A stretch of DNA of 62,723 nucleotides, filler included, from Pirum gemmata (taxonomy: Eukaryota), in assembly GCA_002812295.1 (NCBI GenBank). It is 13 parts of 13 records of this genome, joined end to end, with 100 filler letters (N's around TTAATTAATTAA, not from the genome) between each part and the next. Parts side by side here need not be neighbours in the genome. Positions count along the whole stretch, not along the records: positions 19,282 to 23,837 come from PDIN01001052.1; 12 more parts are not named here. The stretch is one strand, 5' to 3'. The position numbers and the translations under genes are program-made. This document shows positions 13,166 to 45,921 of this stretch, one piece after another. How positions within the stretch are numbered: position 1 is the first letter of the stretch; each line of letters opens with the position of its first letter. The notes under the pieces were generated by a model that worked only from the letters and a program-made list of their open reading frames with translations, had not been told where the DNA came from and searched no databases.

Positions 13166-14649
13166 TAACACAGTCTAGATTATATAATTTTTATACTATG
13201 ATAAGTAGTAGTAGAGTAGACTAACCTATCGTCTATTTCATTACAGTTGTGAGTTGCACTCTCAATTTTTAATTTGGTACTTTTTAAGTGTATAACTGAA
13301 TTTGTTTATAAATACAAGAATTCCAAATTAATTATTAAAAACGTCTGATAGCTTTTAACCATAATAATAATTTAACCATTTATAATAATAATTTGCAATT
13401 GGTATTAATAAACAAACATAATTGTTTAAATTTTGTCATCATAAAGTATACAATAAAGACTACCAAATTAATCCAATATAAATCCATTTCATTTAATTTG
13501 GTATATTTTATTATATATATATTTATTTAAAAGTTTCATTTTAAATATTATAAACAACCAAATAAATATTTGGAGTGTCCCTATTATGTATAAATAAATT
13601 ATTTTATTAAATTTTATTAATATTGAATTTTATTCTAAATTGTTTCAACTTTCAAGGAATTCAAGTCCTGACTGAGCCTAACCCTAACCCTAATCCCAAC
13701 CCTAACCCTAACCCTAACCCTAACCCTAACCCTAATTTATAACCCTAACCCTAACCCTAACCCTAACCCTAACCCTGAGGCTGACGACTCCTTGGTTGTT
13801 TCAAGTTGTTTGTCAGTTATTATTATACACTGTTTAAAAAAATATTTCAAAGTTCAAAGTTCAAACTTTGTAAACAAGCTCTGTTGGTGCGAATAGCTGC
13901 AGGGAACCAATTTAATAAAATAATATTTTAAAAAATTATTATTAAATTTTTCTTATCAAAAAAACTTACAAAAAACTTTGTTATTAAAATATTTTTAACA
14001 CCCATGCCGAATTTTTTTTTTTTAGCATGCCGAATAAAATTGCAAAATCTGCCATATGAGCTCAAAATTGGAAAAAATACTCCAATTTTTGAATGAAATT
14101 ACTATCAAATTGTTAGTAATGGTCTAACTAATAAAACTCTATTATAAACAAATGGCCAGTTTTTAATAATAATTTGGCAAGTTTTTTTAACGTTTTTAGA
14201 AACGAAATCTAAAAAAAAAAGATTTCTATATTTATAAATCGATAAATCCGGTAGTGGTGTTAAAATATATTGCAATTTCACAAAAATAAAAATAGCCATT
14301 TTGGTAGAGTCCAATAAAATCTAAAATAGTAACTGTTCTAATTATTATGATAATATTATTATTATTATTATTAGACTATTTATTTTTAGAAAAAAAAATA
14401 TCATACATGTATAATAATATATATGATCATAAGTTCATAACTACAATATTTTTAATTATTATAATAATAATTATAANNNNNNNNNNNNNNNNNNNNNNNN
14501 NNNNNNNNNNNNNNNNNNNNTTAATTAATTAANNNNNNNNNNNNNNNNNNNNNNNNNNNNNNNNNNNNNNNNNNNNAAGTTTCCGTAGATATAATTTTTT
14601 AGACTGTGTTTTGAAAATCCAAACACCACGAATTGTATCGTGCTTTAAT

Positions 14650-18552: not shown

Positions 18553-18790
18553 TATCAACCCGGATAAAAATGGCGAATCCCCAGAATCCCCATATGAGCT
18601 CAAAATCCAAAAAATATCAAATTGATCCAATTTAATAAAAATACTACCAATGTTTTAGAAATTTTTTAACTAAAAACTCTATTATGAACCAATGGCCAAT
18701 TTTTAAAAATAATTTGGCTAGTTAATATTTAAGATTTTTTAGAAAAGAAGTCTAAAAAAGATCTCCACAGTTTTATCCGGCTTGGCTGTT
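18553..18790. mobile_element. MITE/repeat family H (other copies ~14040-14260, 20455-20646, 45598-45830, 54175-54350)
   Basis: IR CCGGATAAAA...TTTTATCCGG; shared core AAAACTCTATTATGAACCAATGGCCA...AAAATAATTTGGCTAGTT. Confidence 0.75.
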
Positions 18791-19398: not shown

Positions 19399-19872
19399 TC
19401 AATGATAACAACGGAAAACAACAAAATTGATGATAAGGAAATGTTCAATAAAAATAAATAACCTTGCTAAAACATTAACACATTCTTTCAAAGAAAAAAA
19501 CCAGCACTTTTCACTCTTAAAACTTTTTTGTTGTCGTTGGAAATTTGAAATAAAAAAGAATTCATCAACCATTCTAAATAAATCGTTTGCGTCGGGGATG
19601 CTGTTATCATCTTCGATATTTTTTTCTTCATTTTTATCAAAGAGCAGTAAGCAAGTTTCAATTTTGCTATAAATTTCCAGATAAAACAATTCCTTTGCTT
19701 GAAATCTTTCATAAACTTTTGCTAACTTTAAGGCCGCATTGATTTTTTTCTCTTTCGCTTCAGCTTGCGCTTCTGCGAGAATTTTTTCTTCCTCTCTTTT
19801 TTGTCGAGCTTCCCTTTGCTCCTGGGCAAAACTTTTGCCAGATGATTTCTTAGCTTGATTATTCCAAGACAT
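19399..19872 (-). CDS. Hypothetical protein with charged helical N-terminus (probably the first exon)
   Basis: 157-aa ORF after AAACAA-ATG with non-repetitive composition; no family recognised. Confidence 0.5.
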   Translation of the reverse strand: MSWNNQAKKSSGKSFAQEQREARQKREEEKILAEAQAEAKEKKINAALKLAKVYERFQAKELFYLEIYSKIETCLLLFDKNEEKNIEDDNSIPDANDLFRMVDEFFFISNFQRQQKSFKSEKCWFFSLKECVNVLARLFIFIEHFLIINFVVFRCYH

Positions 19873-20382
19873 TTGTTTTTGAGAAGTTTGAATTGTTGTG
19901 AATATTATTATTACTGTTGTTCTTGTTCTTGCTATTGTTGCTAGTTGTTACTATTGATGTAGCTGTTTCTGCTGTTGTTCTTGTTCTTGTTCTTGTTCTT
20001 GTTCTTGTTCTTGTTCTTGTTCTTGTTCTTGTTCTTTTTTTTGTTTTTCTTATTTTTGGTTTAATATATAAATAAACAAAATTATTATATAGATGTAGTT
20101 AATTGACGGATGTACTGTTTCTTATAATATGATATTATTATATAAACAATAAATGAAAATAGGCGTAGCACGGTAGCAGCTCTAGCTAGACTTATCTAGC
20201 TAGCTAGTAGCTAAGTTCTAGCTATCATAGTAACTAGCTAGCTAGTGGCTTGATACAAAATTTAATAATGACACTATAATGACGCAAATAATGATAATTA
20301 AAATAGTCTATATGTATAATAATACTTTTGTGTAGACTAGACTATTTATTCTATCATATTATTTAGACCCTCTATCATATTG

Positions 20383-20444
<62 letters not shown>

Positions 20445-20702
20445 AGAAAGAAAAACTGCAGAGAAAAATGCACCAATTTAAATAAAAGTACTACCAAAGT
20501 TTGAGAAATTGACTAACTAAGAAAACTCTATTATGAACCAATAGCCGATTTCTAAAAATAATTTGGCTAGTTAGCATAAAAGGTATTTCTAAAAAAAAAA
20601 AAATCTAAGTATTTCTAGTAGTAATTTTCTACAGTTTTATCCAGCTTTGTTTTTATGAATAATTATTAAAACAAAATCATAATCCTCTTATTCTATTATT
20701 GA

Positions 20703-20903
20703 ATGAAAAGCTTGAAATCGTTAATTAAAGAAAAAGAAAAAGCTTGTGATGAATCAACCCAAGCATTGAATGAACGAACTGAACGTTTTGAACGTTTTGT
20801 GCATGAATCCACTCAAAGTAGACAAGCAATGGTTAATCATTTAAGTGATTTGAAAAACCGATTAGATGAACAAAATGATGTGTTTTTGGACCTAAACCAT
20901 GAA
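20703..20903 (+). CDS. Coiled-coil exon, possibly the spliced N-terminal extension of the downstream Fanzor gene
   Basis: ATG...LDLNHE followed by the canonical donor GTAAGA at 20904 and AT-rich intron-like sequence. Confidence 0.4.
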
Positions 20904-20977
20904 GTAAGACTTGTTATAAACATATATGAAAAAGATAAAGATTTAATTTTGTATATAAAATATTTACAATTAAATGA

Positions 20978-22837
20978 TTTCTTATTATTTTTAATGTTGG
21001 TGTTGGTGATGGTGTTGGTTGTGGACAACAACAACAACGACAACAACCACGTAAGCGTAAGGGTGTACAAGCCGCGTCTCTTGAATCAACTTCAAGAGAC
21101 GCGGCTTGTACACCCTTTTTCAATAACTTAACAAAGGCGTGGTCTCAAAAATTATTATCATGTACGAAGAGAGACTTGCGAGTTTTGGATTCCAATTGTT
21201 GGAATTCTCGTTTCCAAAAATTCACAAGCACAAAAATAATAATTATCTGTCATCAATATTAATATCTTTGTCTAGAGCAATAAAAGCCAACGTACAGGGC
21301 AAAATCATACAAGAAGAGAAGAAGAACAAACGCCGTAAGAAAGATGAAGAAGAAACAAATTTTTTTGAAAATAACAATGATAAAAATTCCAGTTTTAATA
21401 AAAAAAGTGGCCGTGTTAATAAAAAGGATTATTTACATCCAATTCGGTCAAACAAAATTAAAATTGGATTTCAAACTCATTATACTCAACAAGAAAAAGT
21501 AGAACTTTGGTTTGGAATTTGTCGTTTTGTCTATAACAAATGTGTTAGTTGGTGTCAAGAAGCTGGGGTACAATTCAGTAAAAAGGAATTGCGTCAAAAG
21601 TTCTATGATCACGATTTATCCCTGGTTTTACTCGATCGAATTTTGGTCGAAATGATATGAAGATGGGGAAGAATCGGCAGTGAATCGGCTTTCAATATGA
21701 AAGGAAAATATTCAGACCCTTTTGATGTTTGGGATTCTGCGATATGTGATTTTGATAAAGCGTATCGTGCCCATTTAGCTAAAGTGGCAAAAAATGTTGA
21801 GGAAGGTAAACATGATGATCCTAGTAATAAATGCAAGTTTAAATTTCGAAGTAAAAAAGACTTAAAACGATCATTTGAAATTCGTCATCGAGATTTCAAT
21901 GCTAATAATAGTCAATATAGCTTTTTATTTAAAGAAGGAAAATTTGAATATGATAGTAAACATAAATTATTTAATGATGACGGTATTGAAGAAAAAATAC
22001 GTCGAGGTGTATTTCCACTTAGTTATAATGAAGCTAAGAATCGTTTTACTCCAATTGGATCAATTCGCGTAATTAAAAAAAGGCGAAATAACAATTTTTT
22101 TTTTAGTGTTCCAGGTTTTATTCCAGTTAATCACGATGTTCGACCTGAAGACGTGGTTGCAATGGATCTTGGAGTTAGTAGTTTTATGACAACTTATGAT
22201 ACTAAAGGACTTTGTTCAGAGTGGGGTGTCGATGATATGAAACGTGTTTTTTCTTTGTGTTTACATTTAGATAGATTGATTAGTCGTGTCAATGGAAAAG
22301 AAATGAAAAACTTGCATGGTAAAAAGGGACGTAAAAAGCGAAGAAATTTGAGGAAAGCCATTGAAAGATTACGAAATAAAATCAAAAACAAATTTAATGA
22401 AATACACAAGAAAATGAGTACTTGGTTATGTAAAACTTACAAGGCTATTTTAATACCCAAATTTCATGCTAAAGAAATGACTAATAAGAAAGGAAGAAAA
22501 ATTGTCACCAAAACTGTACGTGGAATTTTAGACAACGCTTGATAGCCAAAAGCGAATTGTTTAGTGATTGTAAAGTGATTGAATGTGACGAAGCTTTAAA
22601 TATACTGCAAAAACTTGTGGATATTGTGGTTTCATTAATTATAAACTTGGTAGTAGTAAAATATTTAAATGTAACCAAAAACGTTGTCCACAAAAGCTTT
22701 GTGACAGTGATCGTGATATTCACGCTGCTTGAAATATTTTATTACATTATTTAACACGTAATAAAATAGAATTTCAAAATTCGAGTTTTTTTTACATAAA
22801 AAAAATAATTCGAAATTCGGATCGGATCATCTTCTAG
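20978..22837 (+). pseudogene. tnpB: Fanzor2 (IS607 TnpB-derived) RNA-guided endonuclease, disrupted
   Basis: HTH-like WFGICRFVYN; RuvC-I VVAMDLG (D at 22165); ILIPKF with Pro at the canonical RuvC-II position; relocated Glu in CDEA-YTAKTCGYCG; second Cys pair CNQKRC; RuvC-III DRDIHAA*NI. Stops at 21658 and 22730, frameshifts near 21230, 22525 and 22596. Confidence 0.9.
21061..21216 (+). pseudogene. tnpA: Fossil IS607-family serine recombinase (TnpA) catalytic-domain fragment
   Basis: Frame 1 reads S*INFKRRGLYTLFQ*LNKGVVSKIIIMYEERLASFGFQLLEF, matching the IS607 TnpA consensus SGINFKRKGL...VVAYKDRLxRFGFELLE. Confidence 0.75.
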
Positions 22838-22981
22838 GAGGTGGTTCGAGTTTGCCACTTGGAGCCTACAGAGTGACGAAATAACGCCCTCTGTTGCAAT
22901 TAACAAGTTAAATTAATACCATTTCTTATGAAAACTTGTTGAAAATACAAGTTCTGATGAGAAATGCAAGTTTTAATCAAG
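22780..22981 (+). ncRNA. Putative Fanzor omegaRNA scaffold / element right end
   Basis: Consecutive hairpins right after RuvC-III: 22822-22849 (12 bp, 4 G-U pairs), 22868-22894 (ACAGAG/CTCTGT), 22920-22966 (10+7 bp). Confidence 0.55.
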
Positions 22982-23293
22982 CGAAACCAAAACCAAAAAA
23001 CAATTTGTCAATTGGGTACGTTTTAGTATGTTTGTTTTGTATTCAAAGACTATATTCCAATATAAATAGACTGTTAGGAGCAAGTGAAAAAATATCTTAT
23101 TATTCCAGTGAAAATTTTTCTCCTTGGAAAATGTTTATATTTATGATTTTTTAGTTTACTTTATCATTTTTAATAAACCCCTTAAATTTTAAATATATAA
23201 TACTAAGTTAACATCAAGTGGTAATATTTTATTTTTTTGAAGTAATTTGGAAAGGTTGCCTTCATTTTCACTTTTATACCAAGTAAATCTGTG

Positions 23294-37939: not shown

Positions 37940-40330
37940 TGTGTTAGAGTTTCTTAGTAGTCCAAGTGGCGTTATTAAATACGTTCGTTTCTTCTTTGTT
38001 TGCTGTTTATTGGAGAATATTTTGCCATCCTATGTGCCCGGTGTTTTGATGTAGTGGGTTGTGGTTTCTCTTATTTCTGGATTCTTGATAATAGCTTTGA
38101 GTGAGCATCGGTCTAGTAGATTTAGAGCTCTGTCGGTTATGGGTTGTAGGTTTGCTTTGGATAGTAGTGTCCTTGAAGCGCTTCTTGGTAGGTTAAATGC
38201 TATTCGGGCTGCTTGGTTTTGTATTCTGTCTAGTTTCTCTTGTGACGTTTTTGCCATTACTGGGATAGCTATGTAACCGTAGTCGAATTAAGGACTTGTA
38301 GGTGTTCAAAACAGTTCTTGAGTTGGAGCCCCAATGTTTGCCTTTGAGCTTGTACAGTAGGTTCATGCGTCGTTTACTTTTGTTAATTAACTAGTGTTAC
38401 TGTATAGGTATTAAAGGTTAAGCTTGCATCCAGGATGTAACCAAGTAATGGTGGTTGTCTTTTACTTGGTATACCATTGTATGTTAGTTCTATTTTTTTC
38501 TTTTTTTTTTGCGGTTATGGAAGCTGTTGCTATCTTTGCGTTGAAAGGATAGGTAATGAGTTTTGTCTTGATCTATGGCTACTCTAGCTAGTTCTCCATC
38601 GTTTCATCCTTAAATTTTCGATTTGGTTGTTGTTTGCGGCTACTGTAAAAACTGTGATATCATCTGCAAAGAGTGCTATGTCAGGTTTTTTTGTGTTAGC
38701 TGGGAGTTTTTGGTCAATAATGGTGGAAACTAGATCGTTTATGAATTATATTGAATAAATTTGGTCCTAGTATGGATCCTTGTGGGACTCCTGTTGTTAT
38801 TTCTGTTATGTACGATTCAAAATCCCTTGAATGACCTTGTATATTTGACCTGATATTAATATGTAGCTGCGTAACCATTTTCTGAGTCAGTTGGGGATGT
38901 TTAGCTTATCCAGTTTGAATAGGACGCCTTCATGCCTAATTTTGTCAAAAGCTTTGGTTAGATCAATTAGTAATATGGCTCTGCATTTGCTTGTGTTTAA
39001 GGCTTCCCGTCCTCGTTAAATGACTCTGAATAGGGCATCCCTTGTCTGTCTATCTTTAACAAAGGCGGATTGGTATATGGTTATTAGTGGCTGTACGTGT
39101 TTCAGTAGTCTTGGGTTTATTATCTTTTTGAGGAGTTTCGATAAGGAGTTGAGAAGACTGATAGGCCAATAATTTATTTCGTTTAGCATGGTCTTATCGG
39201 GTTTTGGGAACATTTTGATTATCGCGTGCTTCCATTGATGTGGGATATGACTGAGATGCATTGGCTTGTTGAATATAACCACTAAGTGCTCTATTATGCT
39301 ATCTGGAAGATGTGACAGGACTTCATAGGTTATTTTGTCTTCTCCTGGGGCGCTGTTTTTCTTTTTGTTGAGTTCCTTTATCATAGTTTTTATTTCGAGG
39401 GCAGTAGCTATTTTGAAATGCAGTTCGTTTTCAGGTTTGGTAAAAAGTTGTTGTTGTGCTCCATTTATTTTTTGTTGATGGTTATTACTGTCGTAGTTGG
39501 CATTATCCTCTGGGGTGTTGTTGAACGAGCTTTTGAAATGTTTGGCAAATTTAAAGATGTTGGTTATTTTTTGTTCGTCGTTGGTTGTATTGTTGGTGTT
39601 GGTTTTTAGTATTAATGAGGCGTTGGTTTTATCATCATTATTAATATTAATATTGTTGTTGATTTTTTTTAATTGGCGCCAGAATGCGTTGAGTTCTTTG
39701 CATTTGCCATCCCATTGTTTTTGCCAAAATTGCTTTATTGCTGTGCGTACTTGGTGGTGGAGTGAATTGTATTTTATTTTGTCTTCAACTGTTTTTGTTT
39801 TCATTCTTTGTTTATTTTGTTTATTTTTTTTGTTAAATTAATCTCCTTATGTGTAATGGCAGGTCGAGTCGATTTGGGGTGCTGGGTATTTTTGTTGTTG
39901 TTGTTGTGTTTGATTGAATTGTATGTTGGATTGTGCTTGTTATGTTGTAGATGGATTTCTCAAGTTGTTGTGTGGTGCTAATGTAGCGAGGGTCACCAGC
40001 TTGGTATTTTTGAAGGTCGTCATGGTATTGTGCCCAGTTGATTCGGGTTATACGGTGTTTGTATTGCTGCAGTGGGAGTTTGAGGGTGGTTTGTAAGGTG
40101 AACTTGAAAGGTATATGATCACTTGTGATGAGCTGGTTGGTGCTGAAGTTGTTGATTTTGGGGAGAAGTGTATGCATATGATTGCAGATCGCTAGGTCTA
40201 GTACTGTTGGCTTTCTATTAATATGGGATGAGTTGTACGTTGGTTGGGTGTAATTTATTACTGCTCTATTTTCTTTTTCTATCCAGTTTTCAAGGTTTGC
40301 GCCGTCGTCGAAAAAGATTTTGAACTCTAT
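37940..40330 (-). mobile_element. Degenerate LINE (APE endonuclease C-terminus plus RT)
   Basis: PTVLDLAI...SDH (endonuclease); SAPGEDKI, QWKHAIIKMFPKPDK, NYWPISLL, GVPQGSILGP, LFADDI, LDRIQNQAAR; many stops and frameshifts. Confidence 0.92.
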
Positions 40331-40800
40331 CATTTTATTTAGTAATAAACACGGCCACATGGTACTTAGCCACCTGGTCGTGTAATAAATCATACATTTA
40401 AAATATCATATGAATACAAATTTAATAATATACACTATTCCGGTAACTGCTATCATGATAGATAGGTTTTAAATTTTATAGATTGATACTTAAAATGTAT
40501 TATAATTATGAAGAGCAATGGGTTACACCCCAGGGAGTAAAATGAAACAACTACCACTACCACTTCCACTATCACTACTTCCACTACGGCTACCACTACT
40601 ACTACTACCACTACCACCACTACCACTACCACTACTACTACAACTACAATTACAACAACTACCACCACCACTACTACTACAACTACCACTACTATTACTA
40701 TCACTATTAATACTACAACTACTACCACTGCGACTAATGTTACTACAATTATTACAACAACAACAACAACTACTACTACTAGTACTACTACTACTACTAG

Positions 40801-41465: not shown

Positions 41466-42355
41466 TTAAGTAAGCAGGTTTTTGTAATTAAAAACTTCTG
41501 TATATTTCTGTATAATAACATTCAAAGACAATTTTTTTTTCACATCCTCCATTATTTGCAAACCCTTATTCCACTCCACTTTCCCATTATTAAAATCAAA
41601 TTCCACAAAATCAAACATTTTTTTCAAAGAATCAAGACTAGTGTTATAAACGATAAAAGGGTAAGTGGGAGGTAAAACATCTTTTATCGATTCATCGTAA
41701 GTAGTAATTATATTATGTCCTAAACAAGCTGCAGTTGCTAACTTAGCACTGGTTTTAAACCTAGAAACCGAAGAAAACGGTTTTCGAATATTAATATCAC
41801 AATTATGAAAAGATTCATTAAACACTTTACTTACTACATGTCCTTCAAAAATATCAGTACCATTACTATAAACACGATCACTAACATCCTCATTAAGCTC
41901 TGTATCATAAAAACTAATATTTTTATAAAGCATTATTTGTTGATAATGTAAAAAATTAGACGTATGTACTAATGATTTTATCGATCCCATATACCCAAAT
42001 ACTAAACTATCTGGGGTGTGTAAAACGGTTTTTACATGGTTAAAGCCTTCATCCCAATGGTGAGGTATGGCGATTAGTTTTCCTTTAAACCCATTTTTGC
42101 GAAAGTAATTTTTCATGTAATTATTATTTACAATTAAACCATCATAAAAATGATGACTAACTTGAAAATCTATTAATTTTTTGGAATATAAATATTTATC
42201 AACAATATCTAGATAATGAATGTTGTTAGGTTTAAATTTTTTCATCATTTTTAGTTTATTCTGATATAATAGCATATTTTCAGGACCAATCCAAATAAAC
42301 ATGCAATGTTCCATTTTTGAAAGTAATAAAATATTTTTAATAGATAGCACTCGCC
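41466..42355 (-). CDS. Glycosyltransferase-like (GT-B/GT4-like) protein, large terminal exon
   Basis: Open 295-codon frame with IPHHWD, FGYMGS, FKTSAKLATAACLG and TYPF; preceded by a TACAG acceptor (AG at 42357-42356). Confidence 0.55.
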
Positions 42356-43319
42356 CTGTATTATTTTATTTATGGGGGGGATAAATAATAAAAATAATAT
42401 TAATATTATTAATAATAATAATAATAATNNNNNNNNNNNNNNNNNNNNNNNNNNNNNNNNNNNNNNNNNNNNTTAATTAATTAANNNNNNNNNNNNNNNN
42501 NNNNNNNNNNNNNNNNNNNNNNNNNNNNAATAATAATAATAAATACATTCCAAAACAAAAAATCAAAAACTATAAAAAACAAGTGGTCATAATAATGCAA
42601 AAATAAAAAAACAATAATAAAATATTACAACGTATTGGCTCGTTTTCGCGCCATTTTCTTTTTGGAACTCTTTTCTTTTTCTTGTTGTTCTCTTTCTTCT
42701 GTTTCTTCTTCGTTAAGTCTTTCTTGCGCTTTCTCGTTCATAGTAGCAATCAACGACTCGTATAATTTATCTACACCATTATTTATTATGAAGGTTAATT
42801 TTGTAGTCTTTTTAATTTGTGCAATTTTTATTAACACCCAAAATATTGAAAAACAGATATAACCATTATATAGTGAAAATTTAGTTTTTGAAGAATATTG
42901 CGCGTGAATAATTGTATTCAAACAGTAACGACATATGATGATATTTAGCATGTGCAAATAACATATGTATAGTTAGTTTTCTATTTTTTGCTTTCTCAAT
43001 TCAATACTTAATAGAATAAGTTAATTAGTGAATTTTTAGCTGGACGAGTCCAACTTGAAAAATCGAAAGGTGAGGACCGGTCCGAGAAAAAAAAATACCC
43101 ATTAACCAATCAAGTGCTCCTATTGTTAGTTGGACTGGGCTTGGAAGGATTGGAAGGCTTGGAAGTCCAAAAAAAAAAAAGAAAAAAAAAAACTAAAACT
43201 AAAACCCAGTCCAGCCCAATCCTGTTCCAAATTTGGGACTTTATGCTTCTAAATAAATATTTCAAATTCAAAAGCCAAACACCAAAAAAACAAAAAAGCC
43301 GAAAACCAATAACTAACAA

Positions 43320-45000: not shown

Positions 45001-45921
45001 AATTGTGATTAGATTCTTATTCTTTTTGTATATAATATTATTAATTACTATTATAATAGTAATATATTAATTAATAGTAATTATAACTATACTATTATAT
45101 TATACTATATAAACGAATTGCTACGTTTCAACTTACTAGACGACGAGTCAATTAACTGACTAGGCGACGAGTTACTACGTTTTAACTTACTCTGACGAGG
45201 AACGTCCCGGATTTTTCCGAAAGTCATGATAGCCGGAACGTTTGACATGTCGGCAAATTAAATTTTCTATTGTAATATATGTATTTCTATATAATATTAT
45301 TATTATGAGTGAACCAAAAATCATCTCCTGAAATTTTGCTACATTGGACTGTTTGACTTTCGGCTAGAATCAGAACACCTGAACACTGAACAAAAAAAAA
45401 AAAGTTTTTTTTAAAAAAAAAAAGAAAAAGAGGAATAAAAATGGACCACTATACAAAGTTTCTGATAAAAAAATTGGGTAAAAAGGGTAAAAAGATAAAA
45501 AAAATTATCCAAACATGGTGTGATTTCTGTGTGATTTTTAATTTTTTTTTTTATTATTATTAGACTATTTTATTTTTCTTTATTTTTTGTATGACATATC
45601 CAGATAAAAATTGCGACATATGATATGAGCTATATGAGCTCAAAATCCTAATCTGAAAAATCTCAAAATGCTCCAATTTTTTAATGAAAGTACTACCAAA
45701 TTTTGAGAAATAATCCAGCTAAGAAAACTCTATTATTGACCAATGGCCAGGTTTTAAAAATAATTTAGCTAGTTATAGTTTTTTTTTTTTTATGATAATT
45801 AAAAAACGTTTCTAGAAAAGAAGTCCAAAAAACCCTAACCCTGATATGATATGATACTATATGATATGACAAAAAAAAAAATAATAAATAAATATCATAA
45901 TATATATACATCATAATTATA

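What the first reader, a model, noticed from the sequence alone, without database searches (positions are those of the whole stretch)
20703..22990. Eukaryotic Fanzor2 (OMEGA RNA-guided nuclease) locus, partly hidden by frameshifts
Seen: stitching frames gives HTH (WFGICRFVYN), RuvC-I (VAMDLG), ILIPKF, FRQRL, CDEA-YTAKTCGYCG...CNQKRC and DRDIHAA*NI. The C-terminal zinc finger and RuvC-III (22601-22837, frame 2) are absent from the ORF track. Known: Pro at the canonical RuvC-II site with the Glu moved just before the zinc finger is the Fanzor/IS607-TnpB signature. Inference: a decayed copy of a Fanzor2 family in this protist; intact siblings may exist and could be a new RNA-guided nuclease.
Basis: partly seen in the sequence, partly recalled or inferred. 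Interest (0 to 1): 0.9.

Follow-up and report, generated by a model that had tools for sequence, protein, structure and literature searches.

The report
Dead Fanzor2 transposon with double-coded DNA
This is a broken copy of a bacterial-type jumping gene, likely in a single-celled relative of animals: its ruined RNA-guided DNA cutter (Fanzor2) has its front part written in a second reading frame inside the transposase gene, which likely explains where that front domain came from, and although this copy cannot make a whole enzyme, unbroken relatives exist in public sequence collections.

Summary
All eight motifs are real. The locus is a decayed, 5'-truncated eukaryotic IS607 element. Its Fanzor2 gene (21050-22786) is 58% identical over 569 residues to an intact 606-aa metagenomic protein (P0175) but has five frameshifts, two stops, an 8-codon loss in RuvC, and DLG instead of the family's DPG. 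The 20703 ORF is unrelated. In 72 dereplicated relatives the +1 frame of TnpA's second half holds 3 stops against 177 expected. The domain outlives TnpA, and a model of a relative superposes on mimivirus Fanzor2 from residue 53, where its 'unique' N-terminal domain starts. This scan noted that overlap before on other DNA (8 notes); my paper searches did not find it in print. The host is likely the ichthyosporean Pirum gemmata (label of an identical gene model). Many divergent sibling copies exist, some with DPG, but no intact one was shown. A structured 3' RNA (z -4) is likely the omega-RNA. Test intact relatives rather than a reconstruction.

The parts
21050..22786 (+). Fanzor2 pseudogene over its full alignable length; frameshifts near 21230-21261, 21616, 21699, 22526 (with 8 codons lost) and 22597; in-frame stops at 21653 and 22730
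   Evidence: Frameshift-aware alignment to P0175 (332 of 569 identical) and P0176; consistent
21079..21219 (+). IS607 TnpA (serine recombinase) remnant in frame 1, profile positions 106-152 of 208, two stops; the HTH and catalytic first half are absent
   Evidence: Own TnpA profile iE 1.6e-10; 37 bits vs best 6.1 in 300 shuffles; NF033518 E 5e-4, far below its cut-off of 110 bits
21077..21226 (+). Fanzor2 N-terminal domain in frame 2, i.e. the +1 frame of the TnpA remnant (same bases read twice)
   Evidence: Profile iE 4.7e-18; 62 bits vs best 6.0 in shuffles; tblastn hits from relatives
21228..21320 (+). Probable remnant of the TnpA C-terminal helix, frame 3 (weak)
   Evidence: 5.2 bits, conditional E 6e-4 in a targeted search
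21059..21117 (.). Perfect 27-bp inverted repeat (arms 21059-21085 and 21091-21117, 5-nt loop) at the point where TnpA homology stops; likely a fold-back scar of the 5' truncation
   Evidence: present without differences in a contig of run X1 (record 4)
21484..21564 (+). HTH_OrfB_IS605 region (WED/REC start)
   Evidence: Pfam PF12323 E 2.1e-6
22165..22173 (+). RuvC-I Asp in DLG (family form DPG)
   Evidence: sibling contigs read C at 22169, giving Pro
22456..22458 (+). Pro at the canonical RuvC-II position (IPKF)
22590..22592 (+). Alternative RuvC-II Glu (CDEA), six residues before the zinc finger once the 5-nt insertion at about 22596 is allowed for
22616..22687 (+). C4 zinc finger (CGYC...CNQKRC), frame 2
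   Evidence: Pfam PF07282 E 0.009 on the 43-aa piece
22709..22732 (+). RuvC-III DRD motif (Asp 22715-17) followed by a TGA where relatives have Arg
22765..22978 (+). Structured 3' region, candidate omega-RNA scaffold and right end; sibling contigs stop matching at 22978
   Evidence: Fold z -4.07, 0 of 200 shuffles as stable; lowest z of 28 windows; X2 record 16 and X3 record 22 both end at 22978

Best explanation
This is a dead, 5'-truncated copy of a eukaryotic IS607 transposon whose Fanzor2 gene is broken in at least seven places and whose bases 21077-21226 code in two frames, as TnpA and as the Fanzor2 N-terminal domain, and it likely sits in the nuclear genome of an ichthyosporean. Shown: the anatomy, the lesions, the double coding, divergent sibling copies, intact relatives elsewhere. 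Inferred from described relatives: an intact ancestor would have moved by serine-recombinase excision and insertion at GG, and its Fanzor2, loaded with an omega-RNA transcribed across the right end, would have cut the empty donor site next to a short G-rich TAM so that repair restores the element. The N-terminal domain likely arose by overprinting: the TnpB frame was extended upstream through the +1 frame of tnpA in a bacterial ancestor, and the extension became the RuvC-reinforcing part seen in mimivirus Fanzor2. This copy likely lost its left part by a fold-back event and then decayed; it cannot encode a full nuclease or a transposase.
For: Homology and lesions. Best solved relative is mimivirus Fanzor2, 9B0L (E 2e-4, family profile E 1e-53). 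Tree: inside the DPG/alternative-Glu clade, SH-aLRT 100 against canonical TnpBs (quick tree). Double coding in the window. In relatives: 61 of 75 domain hits lie in the +1 frame of a same-strand TnpA; 44 of 44 TnpA candidates scanned have NF033518 as best hit; 3 stops vs 177 expected; the domain persists where the TnpA frame has 12-15 stops (L009, L052, L083, L140); a model of P0010 aligns to 9B0L from model residue 93 and chain residue 53 (Z 25.6, rmsd 3.2, 411 aligned), while the other 49 listed entries start at about residue 194-200. Siblings. Host: P0001 is identical to the window frame apart from a predicted intron and is labelled Pirum gemmata; a host repeat with four more copies in the window lies on the same contig.
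Against: This copy fails two fingerprint letters (DLG for DPG; TAKTC for TSKTC). No GG end or left end was found, and the pseudoknot test was inconclusive (6 of 20 vs control mean 2.65, maximum 8). The N-terminal profile alone did not find 9B0L by sequence, and the structural match gives only first and last aligned residues. Loci were ranked by similarity to a protein that includes the domain, which favours open +1 frames. Run X1 may be the window's own source, so it is not independent. The tree backbone inside the clade is poorly resolved and the careful search did not finish. No activity, RNA or translation start was tested.
Confidence: 0.88

Rival explanations
1. The N-terminal 'domain' is only a shadow: TnpA conservation makes its +1 frame look conserved and gene callers extend the ORF through it, but it is not translated.
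For: The motif maps codon by codon onto TnpA's conserved stretch; the profile of this part alone finds no solved structure; locus ranking favours open frames; no translation data.
Against: Stops are missing specifically in the +1 frame (3 vs 177 expected; +2 frame 464 vs 541), and not in 6 opposite-strand TnpAs (130 vs 125); the motif survives TnpA decay; P0175 carries it right after its start; the model superposes on the ordered N-terminal domain of 9B0L.
Confidence: 0.1
2. The copy is intact in the organism and the breaks are sequencing or assembly errors.
For: The assembly is fragmented and rich in homopolymers; the listed exact contigs do not cover the breaks at 21616, 21699, 22526, 22597 or 22730.
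Against: The breaks are an 8-codon loss, a 5-nt insertion, an apparent 11-nt duplication (8-nt repeat at 21671 and 21682) and point stops, not homopolymer slips; an exact contig of X1 covers 21054-21566 with the hairpin and the first shift.
Confidence: 0.04
3. The element came in as part of an endogenous giant virus, or the contig is a bacterial or viral contaminant.
For: Relatives are common in giant-virus and bacterial contigs; the element's CpG ratio (1.25) differs from the window's (0.76).
Against: No close relative in viral contigs; flanks hold a host repeat, microsatellites and poly-A, with no viral gene family seen; GC 31.6% vs 28.9%; sibling copies in three runs of the same organism label; the window carries VWA-thrombospondin, LRR and glutaredoxin genes.
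Confidence: 0.07
4. The locus is a domesticated, nuclease-dead gene that makes the spliced 161-aa product P0001.
For: A gene model exists; the 293-codon frame 21661-22539 is open.
Against: The predicted intron removes 24 residues that align without a gap to P0175; lesions flank the open frame on both sides; no RNA holder was listed.
Confidence: 0.04

Closest known systems
Acanthamoeba polyphaga mimivirus Fanzor2 (ApmFz2, L79; PDB 9B0L; PMC11832414, PMC10530073)
   Same: Best solved relative by sequence and by fold of an intact relative; rearranged RuvC with the Glu before a C4 zinc finger; N-terminal domain; IS607 TnpA partner.
   Different: Only about 22% identical to the modelled relative; this copy is a nuclear pseudogene; the subfamily has insertions in REC/WED; here the N-terminal domain still overlaps tnpA; TAM unknown.
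Eukaryotic IS607 elements with Fanzor2 (IS607EU; PMC3627910, PMC3673617, PMC13565253)
   Same: Serine-recombinase TnpA plus Fanzor2 in one element; mostly fragmentary copies, as reported for other eukaryotes.
   Different: Host likely in Ichthyosporea, for which my searches found no Fanzor report; the long out-of-frame overlap is not described in the passages read (PMC3673617 says only that prokaryotic IS607 has two overlapping ORFs and that one amoebal copy has a 100-aa N-terminal insertion in ORFB).
Pro-Fanzors / TnpB2 of cyanobacterial IS607 (PMC10711439)
   Same: DPG and alternative-Glu clade; cyanobacterial loci show the same +1 overlap (L161, L163, L164, L170 and others).
   Different: The window's protein does not group with the cyanobacterial branch but with unlabelled metagenomic proteins; eukaryotic host.

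Membership tests
Fanzor2 | DPG motif in RuvC-I (PMC10711439) | tested here: not met
   This copy reads DLG. Sibling contigs read Pro (505 of 939 depth in X1, 58 of 58 in X2), as do P0175 and 98 of 109 long relatives. So the copy is filed as a decayed derivative, not as a working member.
Fanzor2 | Catalytic Glu six residues before the zinc finger | tested here: met
   Glu at 22590-92, aligned to the same Glu of P0175 across a 5-nt insertion
Fanzor2 | Pro or Gly at the canonical RuvC-II position (PMC10530073) | tested here: met
   IPKF at 22453-64
Fanzor2 | D-X(125,275)-[TS]-[TS]-X-X-C4 finger-X(5,50)-RD (PMC3627910) | tested here: not met
   All elements are present in order but split over three frames, and the second T/S is Ala in this copy; met in P0175
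Fanzor2 | Groups with the pro-Fanzor/Fanzor2 clade rather than canonical TnpB | tested here: met
   62-row clade, SH-aLRT 100, quick tree of 71 rows using the 293-aa frame; no Fanzor1 rows were included
Fanzor2 | N-terminal domain as in ApmFz2 residues 53-130 | tested here: met
   Frame-2 segment matches the family domain; a relative's model aligns to 9B0L from residue 53; sequence-only test of the domain was negative
Fanzor2 | Encoded in a eukaryotic (or eukaryotic-virus) genome | tested here: met
   Identical gene model labelled Pirum gemmata; host repeat on the same contig; no long-read proof
Fanzor2 | Omega-RNA with a pseudoknot at the right end | tested here: inconclusive
   Structured and conserved 3' region; no Rfam family; pseudoknot partner not found
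Fanzor2 | RNA-guided, TAM-dependent DNA cleavage | not testable with these tools
   Needs a bench test; this copy cannot encode the full protein
IS607 family | Serine-recombinase TnpA upstream of TnpB | tested here: met
   Remnant only, first 105 profile positions missing, two stops
IS607 family | Ends in GG, no terminal inverted repeats, no target duplication (PMC13565253) | tested here: inconclusive
   Left end missing; no GG at the 22978 boundary; no repeat pair framing the element among those shown

The most novel reading that the evidence does not exclude
The N-terminal domain that grips the guide-RNA pseudoknot in Fanzor2 was born de novo by overprinting the IS607 transposase gene (my odds about 0.8), and this double-coded cassette is still alive in the nuclear genome of an ichthyosporean, with at least one intact copy that makes both transposase and RNA-guided nuclease from the same DNA (about 0.25). 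That would be an active bacterial-type IS607/Fanzor2 system in a close relative of animals.
Probability: 0.2. Interest if true: 0.75.

Novelty: new member of a known kind. Interest (0 to 1): 0.5.

Why it matters
The copy itself is a fossil. Two things matter. First, it shows in a cellular eukaryote that the Fanzor2 N-terminal domain, described from the mimivirus structure as unique and of unstated origin, is the second reading frame of the transposase gene: a clear case of a functional domain arising by overprinting in a genome-editing enzyme family, with a practical consequence, since constructs that start at the annotated HTH may lack it. Second, it points to a Fanzor2 subfamily with intact natural members (P0175, P0184, P0187) that can be screened directly, and likely extends Fanzor2 to Ichthyosporea.

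Tried and rejected
Whole-genome search: no genome is held, so copy number and intact siblings could not be counted. Alternative genetic code: the two in-frame TGAs align to Trp/Tyr and to Arg and frameshifts remain, so rejected. Methylation-driven decay: the element is not CpG-depleted (observed/expected 1.25-1.29), so rejected. Left end at the repeat 20465-20600: it has four more copies in the window with no Fanzor nearby, and the joint 20577-22943 rests on one contig with a 22-letter side, so rejected. ORF 20703-21131 as N-terminus: no profile match and covered by a single exact low-depth contig. Expression: no RNA holder listed; run X2 is only guessed to be RNA and its sibling contigs could be DNA carry-over, so no claim. 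Second copy in the window: none. Viral contigs: no close relative. Rfam: only a chance microRNA-like match on the hairpin. Pseudoknot covariation: inconclusive. N-terminal profile against solved structures by sequence: no real hit. Earlier notes by sequence and by genome: none. The careful tree did not finish.

Full report
Observation. Pfam and NCBIfam name the frames as TnpB-like: HTH_OrfB_IS605 E 2e-6, OrfB_IS605 E 7e-10, guided_TnpB E 8e-12, below that model's cut-off. The only solved structure matched by the 293-aa frame is mimivirus Fanzor2, 9B0L. The ORF at 20703, where the finding starts, matches no profile of the element.

State of the gene. A search of longer proteins found full-length relatives (3 hits among 730 candidates). 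P0175 (606 aa) has DPG, IPKF, CDEAYTSKTC and DRD and all three Pfam domains; its cluster also holds P0184 and P0183, and P0187 (681 aa) is a second complete type. Frameshift-aware alignment of P0175 covers 21050-22786 with 332 of 569 residues identical and places five frameshifts (about 21230-21261, 21616, 21699, 22526, 22597), two in-frame stops (21653, 22730) and the loss of 8 codons of RuvC at 22526 (one search agrees with other relatives). The three catalytic residues survive (22165, 22590, 22715) but in three different frames. RuvC-I reads DLG. The Results of PMC10711439 (section 22, part 1 of 3, read) define DPG plus a Glu six residues before the zinc finger as the Fanzor fingerprint; passages of PMC10530073 give Pro or Gly at the canonical site. 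Among 109 relatives of 400 aa or more, 98 showed DPG and 105 the shifted Glu by pattern. A quick tree of 71 rows puts the window's frame in the DPG clade (SH-aLRT 100), sister to three metagenomic fragments at up to 66% identity and apart from the cyanobacterial branch; the careful search did not finish and no Fanzor1 was included.

What was missed: one stretch, two proteins. Frame 1 at 21079-21219 matches an IS607 TnpA profile (iE 1.6e-10) and frame 2 at 21077-21226 the N-terminal domain of the relatives (iE 4.7e-18); 300 shuffles reach at most 6 bits against 37 and 62. The first 105 of 208 TnpA positions are absent from all six frames of the contig, and a perfect 27-bp inverted repeat sits at the break. 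I tested whether the overlap is general. In 158 metagenomic and viral loci, 61 of 75 domain hits lie in the +1 frame of a same-strand TnpA, 10 have no TnpA hit and 4 do not overlap (one locus counts twice and three are identical). I scanned 44 of 59 motif-picked TnpA candidates: all 44 have NF033518 as best hit, 40 above its cut-off. With 79 prokaryotic loci added, cyanobacteria show the same layout. Of 83 loci with a long TnpA, 78 remained after dereplication at 80% (median identity 39%). In the 72 same-strand ones the +1 frame of TnpA's second half holds 3 stops in 6829 codons, against 177 expected from codon shuffles (minimum 152 in 100); the +2 frame holds 464 against 541; the 6 opposite-strand TnpAs show no depletion (130 vs 125). 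The domain persists where the TnpA frame has decayed to 12-15 stops (L009, L052, L083, L140). Caveat: loci were ranked by similarity to a protein that includes the domain. An AlphaFold2 model of the relative P0010 (mean pLDDT 80.8, no templates) matches 9B0L best and aligns from model residue 93 to chain residue 53 (Z 25.6, rmsd 3.2, 411 residues), whereas the other 49 listed entries start near residue 197. PMC11832414 (parts 1-2 of 5 read) calls residues 53-130 an N-terminal domain not seen in other TnpB structures and names Asn82 and Ser83 as pseudoknot contacts; the family profile's alignment to 9B0L begins at exactly N82-S83-W84. Against: a profile of the domain alone (81 rows) does not find 9B0L by sequence.

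Host and family. P0001 is letter for letter the window's frame with a 24-residue gap called as an intron and a different last residue or two; it and P0007 are labelled Pirum gemmata, class Ichthyosporea. The host is therefore likely this species. The contig carries a repeat with four more copies in the window; element GC is 31.6% against 28.9%. Other window genes are of eukaryotic type. Laying four runs at 80% likeness, the summed contig depth in X1 is 1,726-86,993 over 21505-22974 against 92-334 for exact flank contigs. This is not a copy number, but it shows many divergent siblings, also seen in X2 (another study, same organism label) and X3. Some read Pro at RuvC-I and one lacks the 5-nt insertion. 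P0007 is itself rearranged. Intact siblings are thus possible but not shown.

Right end. Two sibling contigs from different runs stop matching at 22978. The region 22765-22985 folds with z -4.07 (0 of 200 shuffles), and 22810-22969 has the lowest z of 28 windows. It is likely the omega-RNA scaffold. No Rfam family matches, no GG is present at the boundary, and the pseudoknot test was inconclusive.

Mechanism. Shown: anatomy, lesions, double coding. From described relatives (passages of PMC13565253 and bioRxiv 10.1101/2023.11.20.567912; figure legends in PMC10711439 section 28): IS607 elements excise as double-stranded circles by a serine recombinase, recombine at GG, and use TnpB with a right-end RNA to cut the empty donor site and be copied back. 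I infer the same for the ancestor of this copy. This copy can do neither.

Novelty. Fanzor2 in IS607 elements is described (PMC3627910 and PMC3673617, passages) and tested (PMC10530073, PMC10432273, passages). A search for Fanzor with Ichthyosporea gave 0 papers, and supplement searches for ichthyosporean names were empty in three papers (one scanned file not searched, and tables that list accessions without names would be missed). The long overlap was not found in print: 'overlap' does not occur in the main text of PMC10711439 or PMC13565253, the shown passages elsewhere concern other overlaps, and listings of searches showed no such paper; subscription papers are not covered. Eight earlier notes of this scan report the same overprint on bacterial, phage and giant-virus DNA; I saw them after my own tests and they are not independent support. 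Verdict: new member of a known kind, dead in this copy, carrying a family-wide feature that a specialist would find notable. Interest 0.5, not 0.9.

Noticed in passing
window 20465-20600; also 14073-14183, 18619-18749, 45665-45775, 54223-54361: A dispersed repeat of about 110-140 bp, 79-88% alike, five copies in the window, same orientation; very high summed depth in run X1 (about 1e6). Probably a high-copy host element.
   Followed up: partly
window 19399-19947 (-): 182-codon frame with a coiled-coil stretch and no clear family; covered by an exact contig in X2 (depth 32) where neighbouring unique DNA has almost none, so possibly an expressed host gene.
   Followed up: no
window 54623-55741 (+): DUF4395 fused to glutaredoxin in one intronless-looking frame, a pairing that looks prokaryotic (my impression, not tested); possible horizontal acquisition.
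   Followed up: no
window 56662-58020 (-): Protein with a von Willebrand A domain, thrombospondin repeats and a probable C-terminal membrane helix, resembling adhesion proteins.
   Followed up: no
window 41466-42365 (-): 299-codon frame with no Pfam match; reads like a glycosyltransferase-type fold by eye only.
   Followed up: no
window 8191-8754 (+) and 39016-40405 (-): Fragments of non-LTR retrotransposons (weak RVT_1 match on 39019-39837).
   Followed up: partly
P0176 and P0187: Close relatives whose long N-terminus differs from the family's +1-frame type before the PYW motif, suggesting a separate remodelling of the front end.
   Followed up: no
L002, L003, L081 downstream of the zinc finger; window 22860-22869: A TGGGAC(C/T)T motif about 50 nt after RuvC-III pairs with a 5-mer at a GG about 60-110 nt further on in three close loci, a pseudoknot candidate; the window has the motif but no partner.
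   Followed up: partly
L052, L069, L074, L091, L092, L112: AT-rich loci where TnpA lies on the opposite strand and no longer overlaps the Fanzor2 gene; L052 keeps the N-terminal domain.
   Followed up: partly
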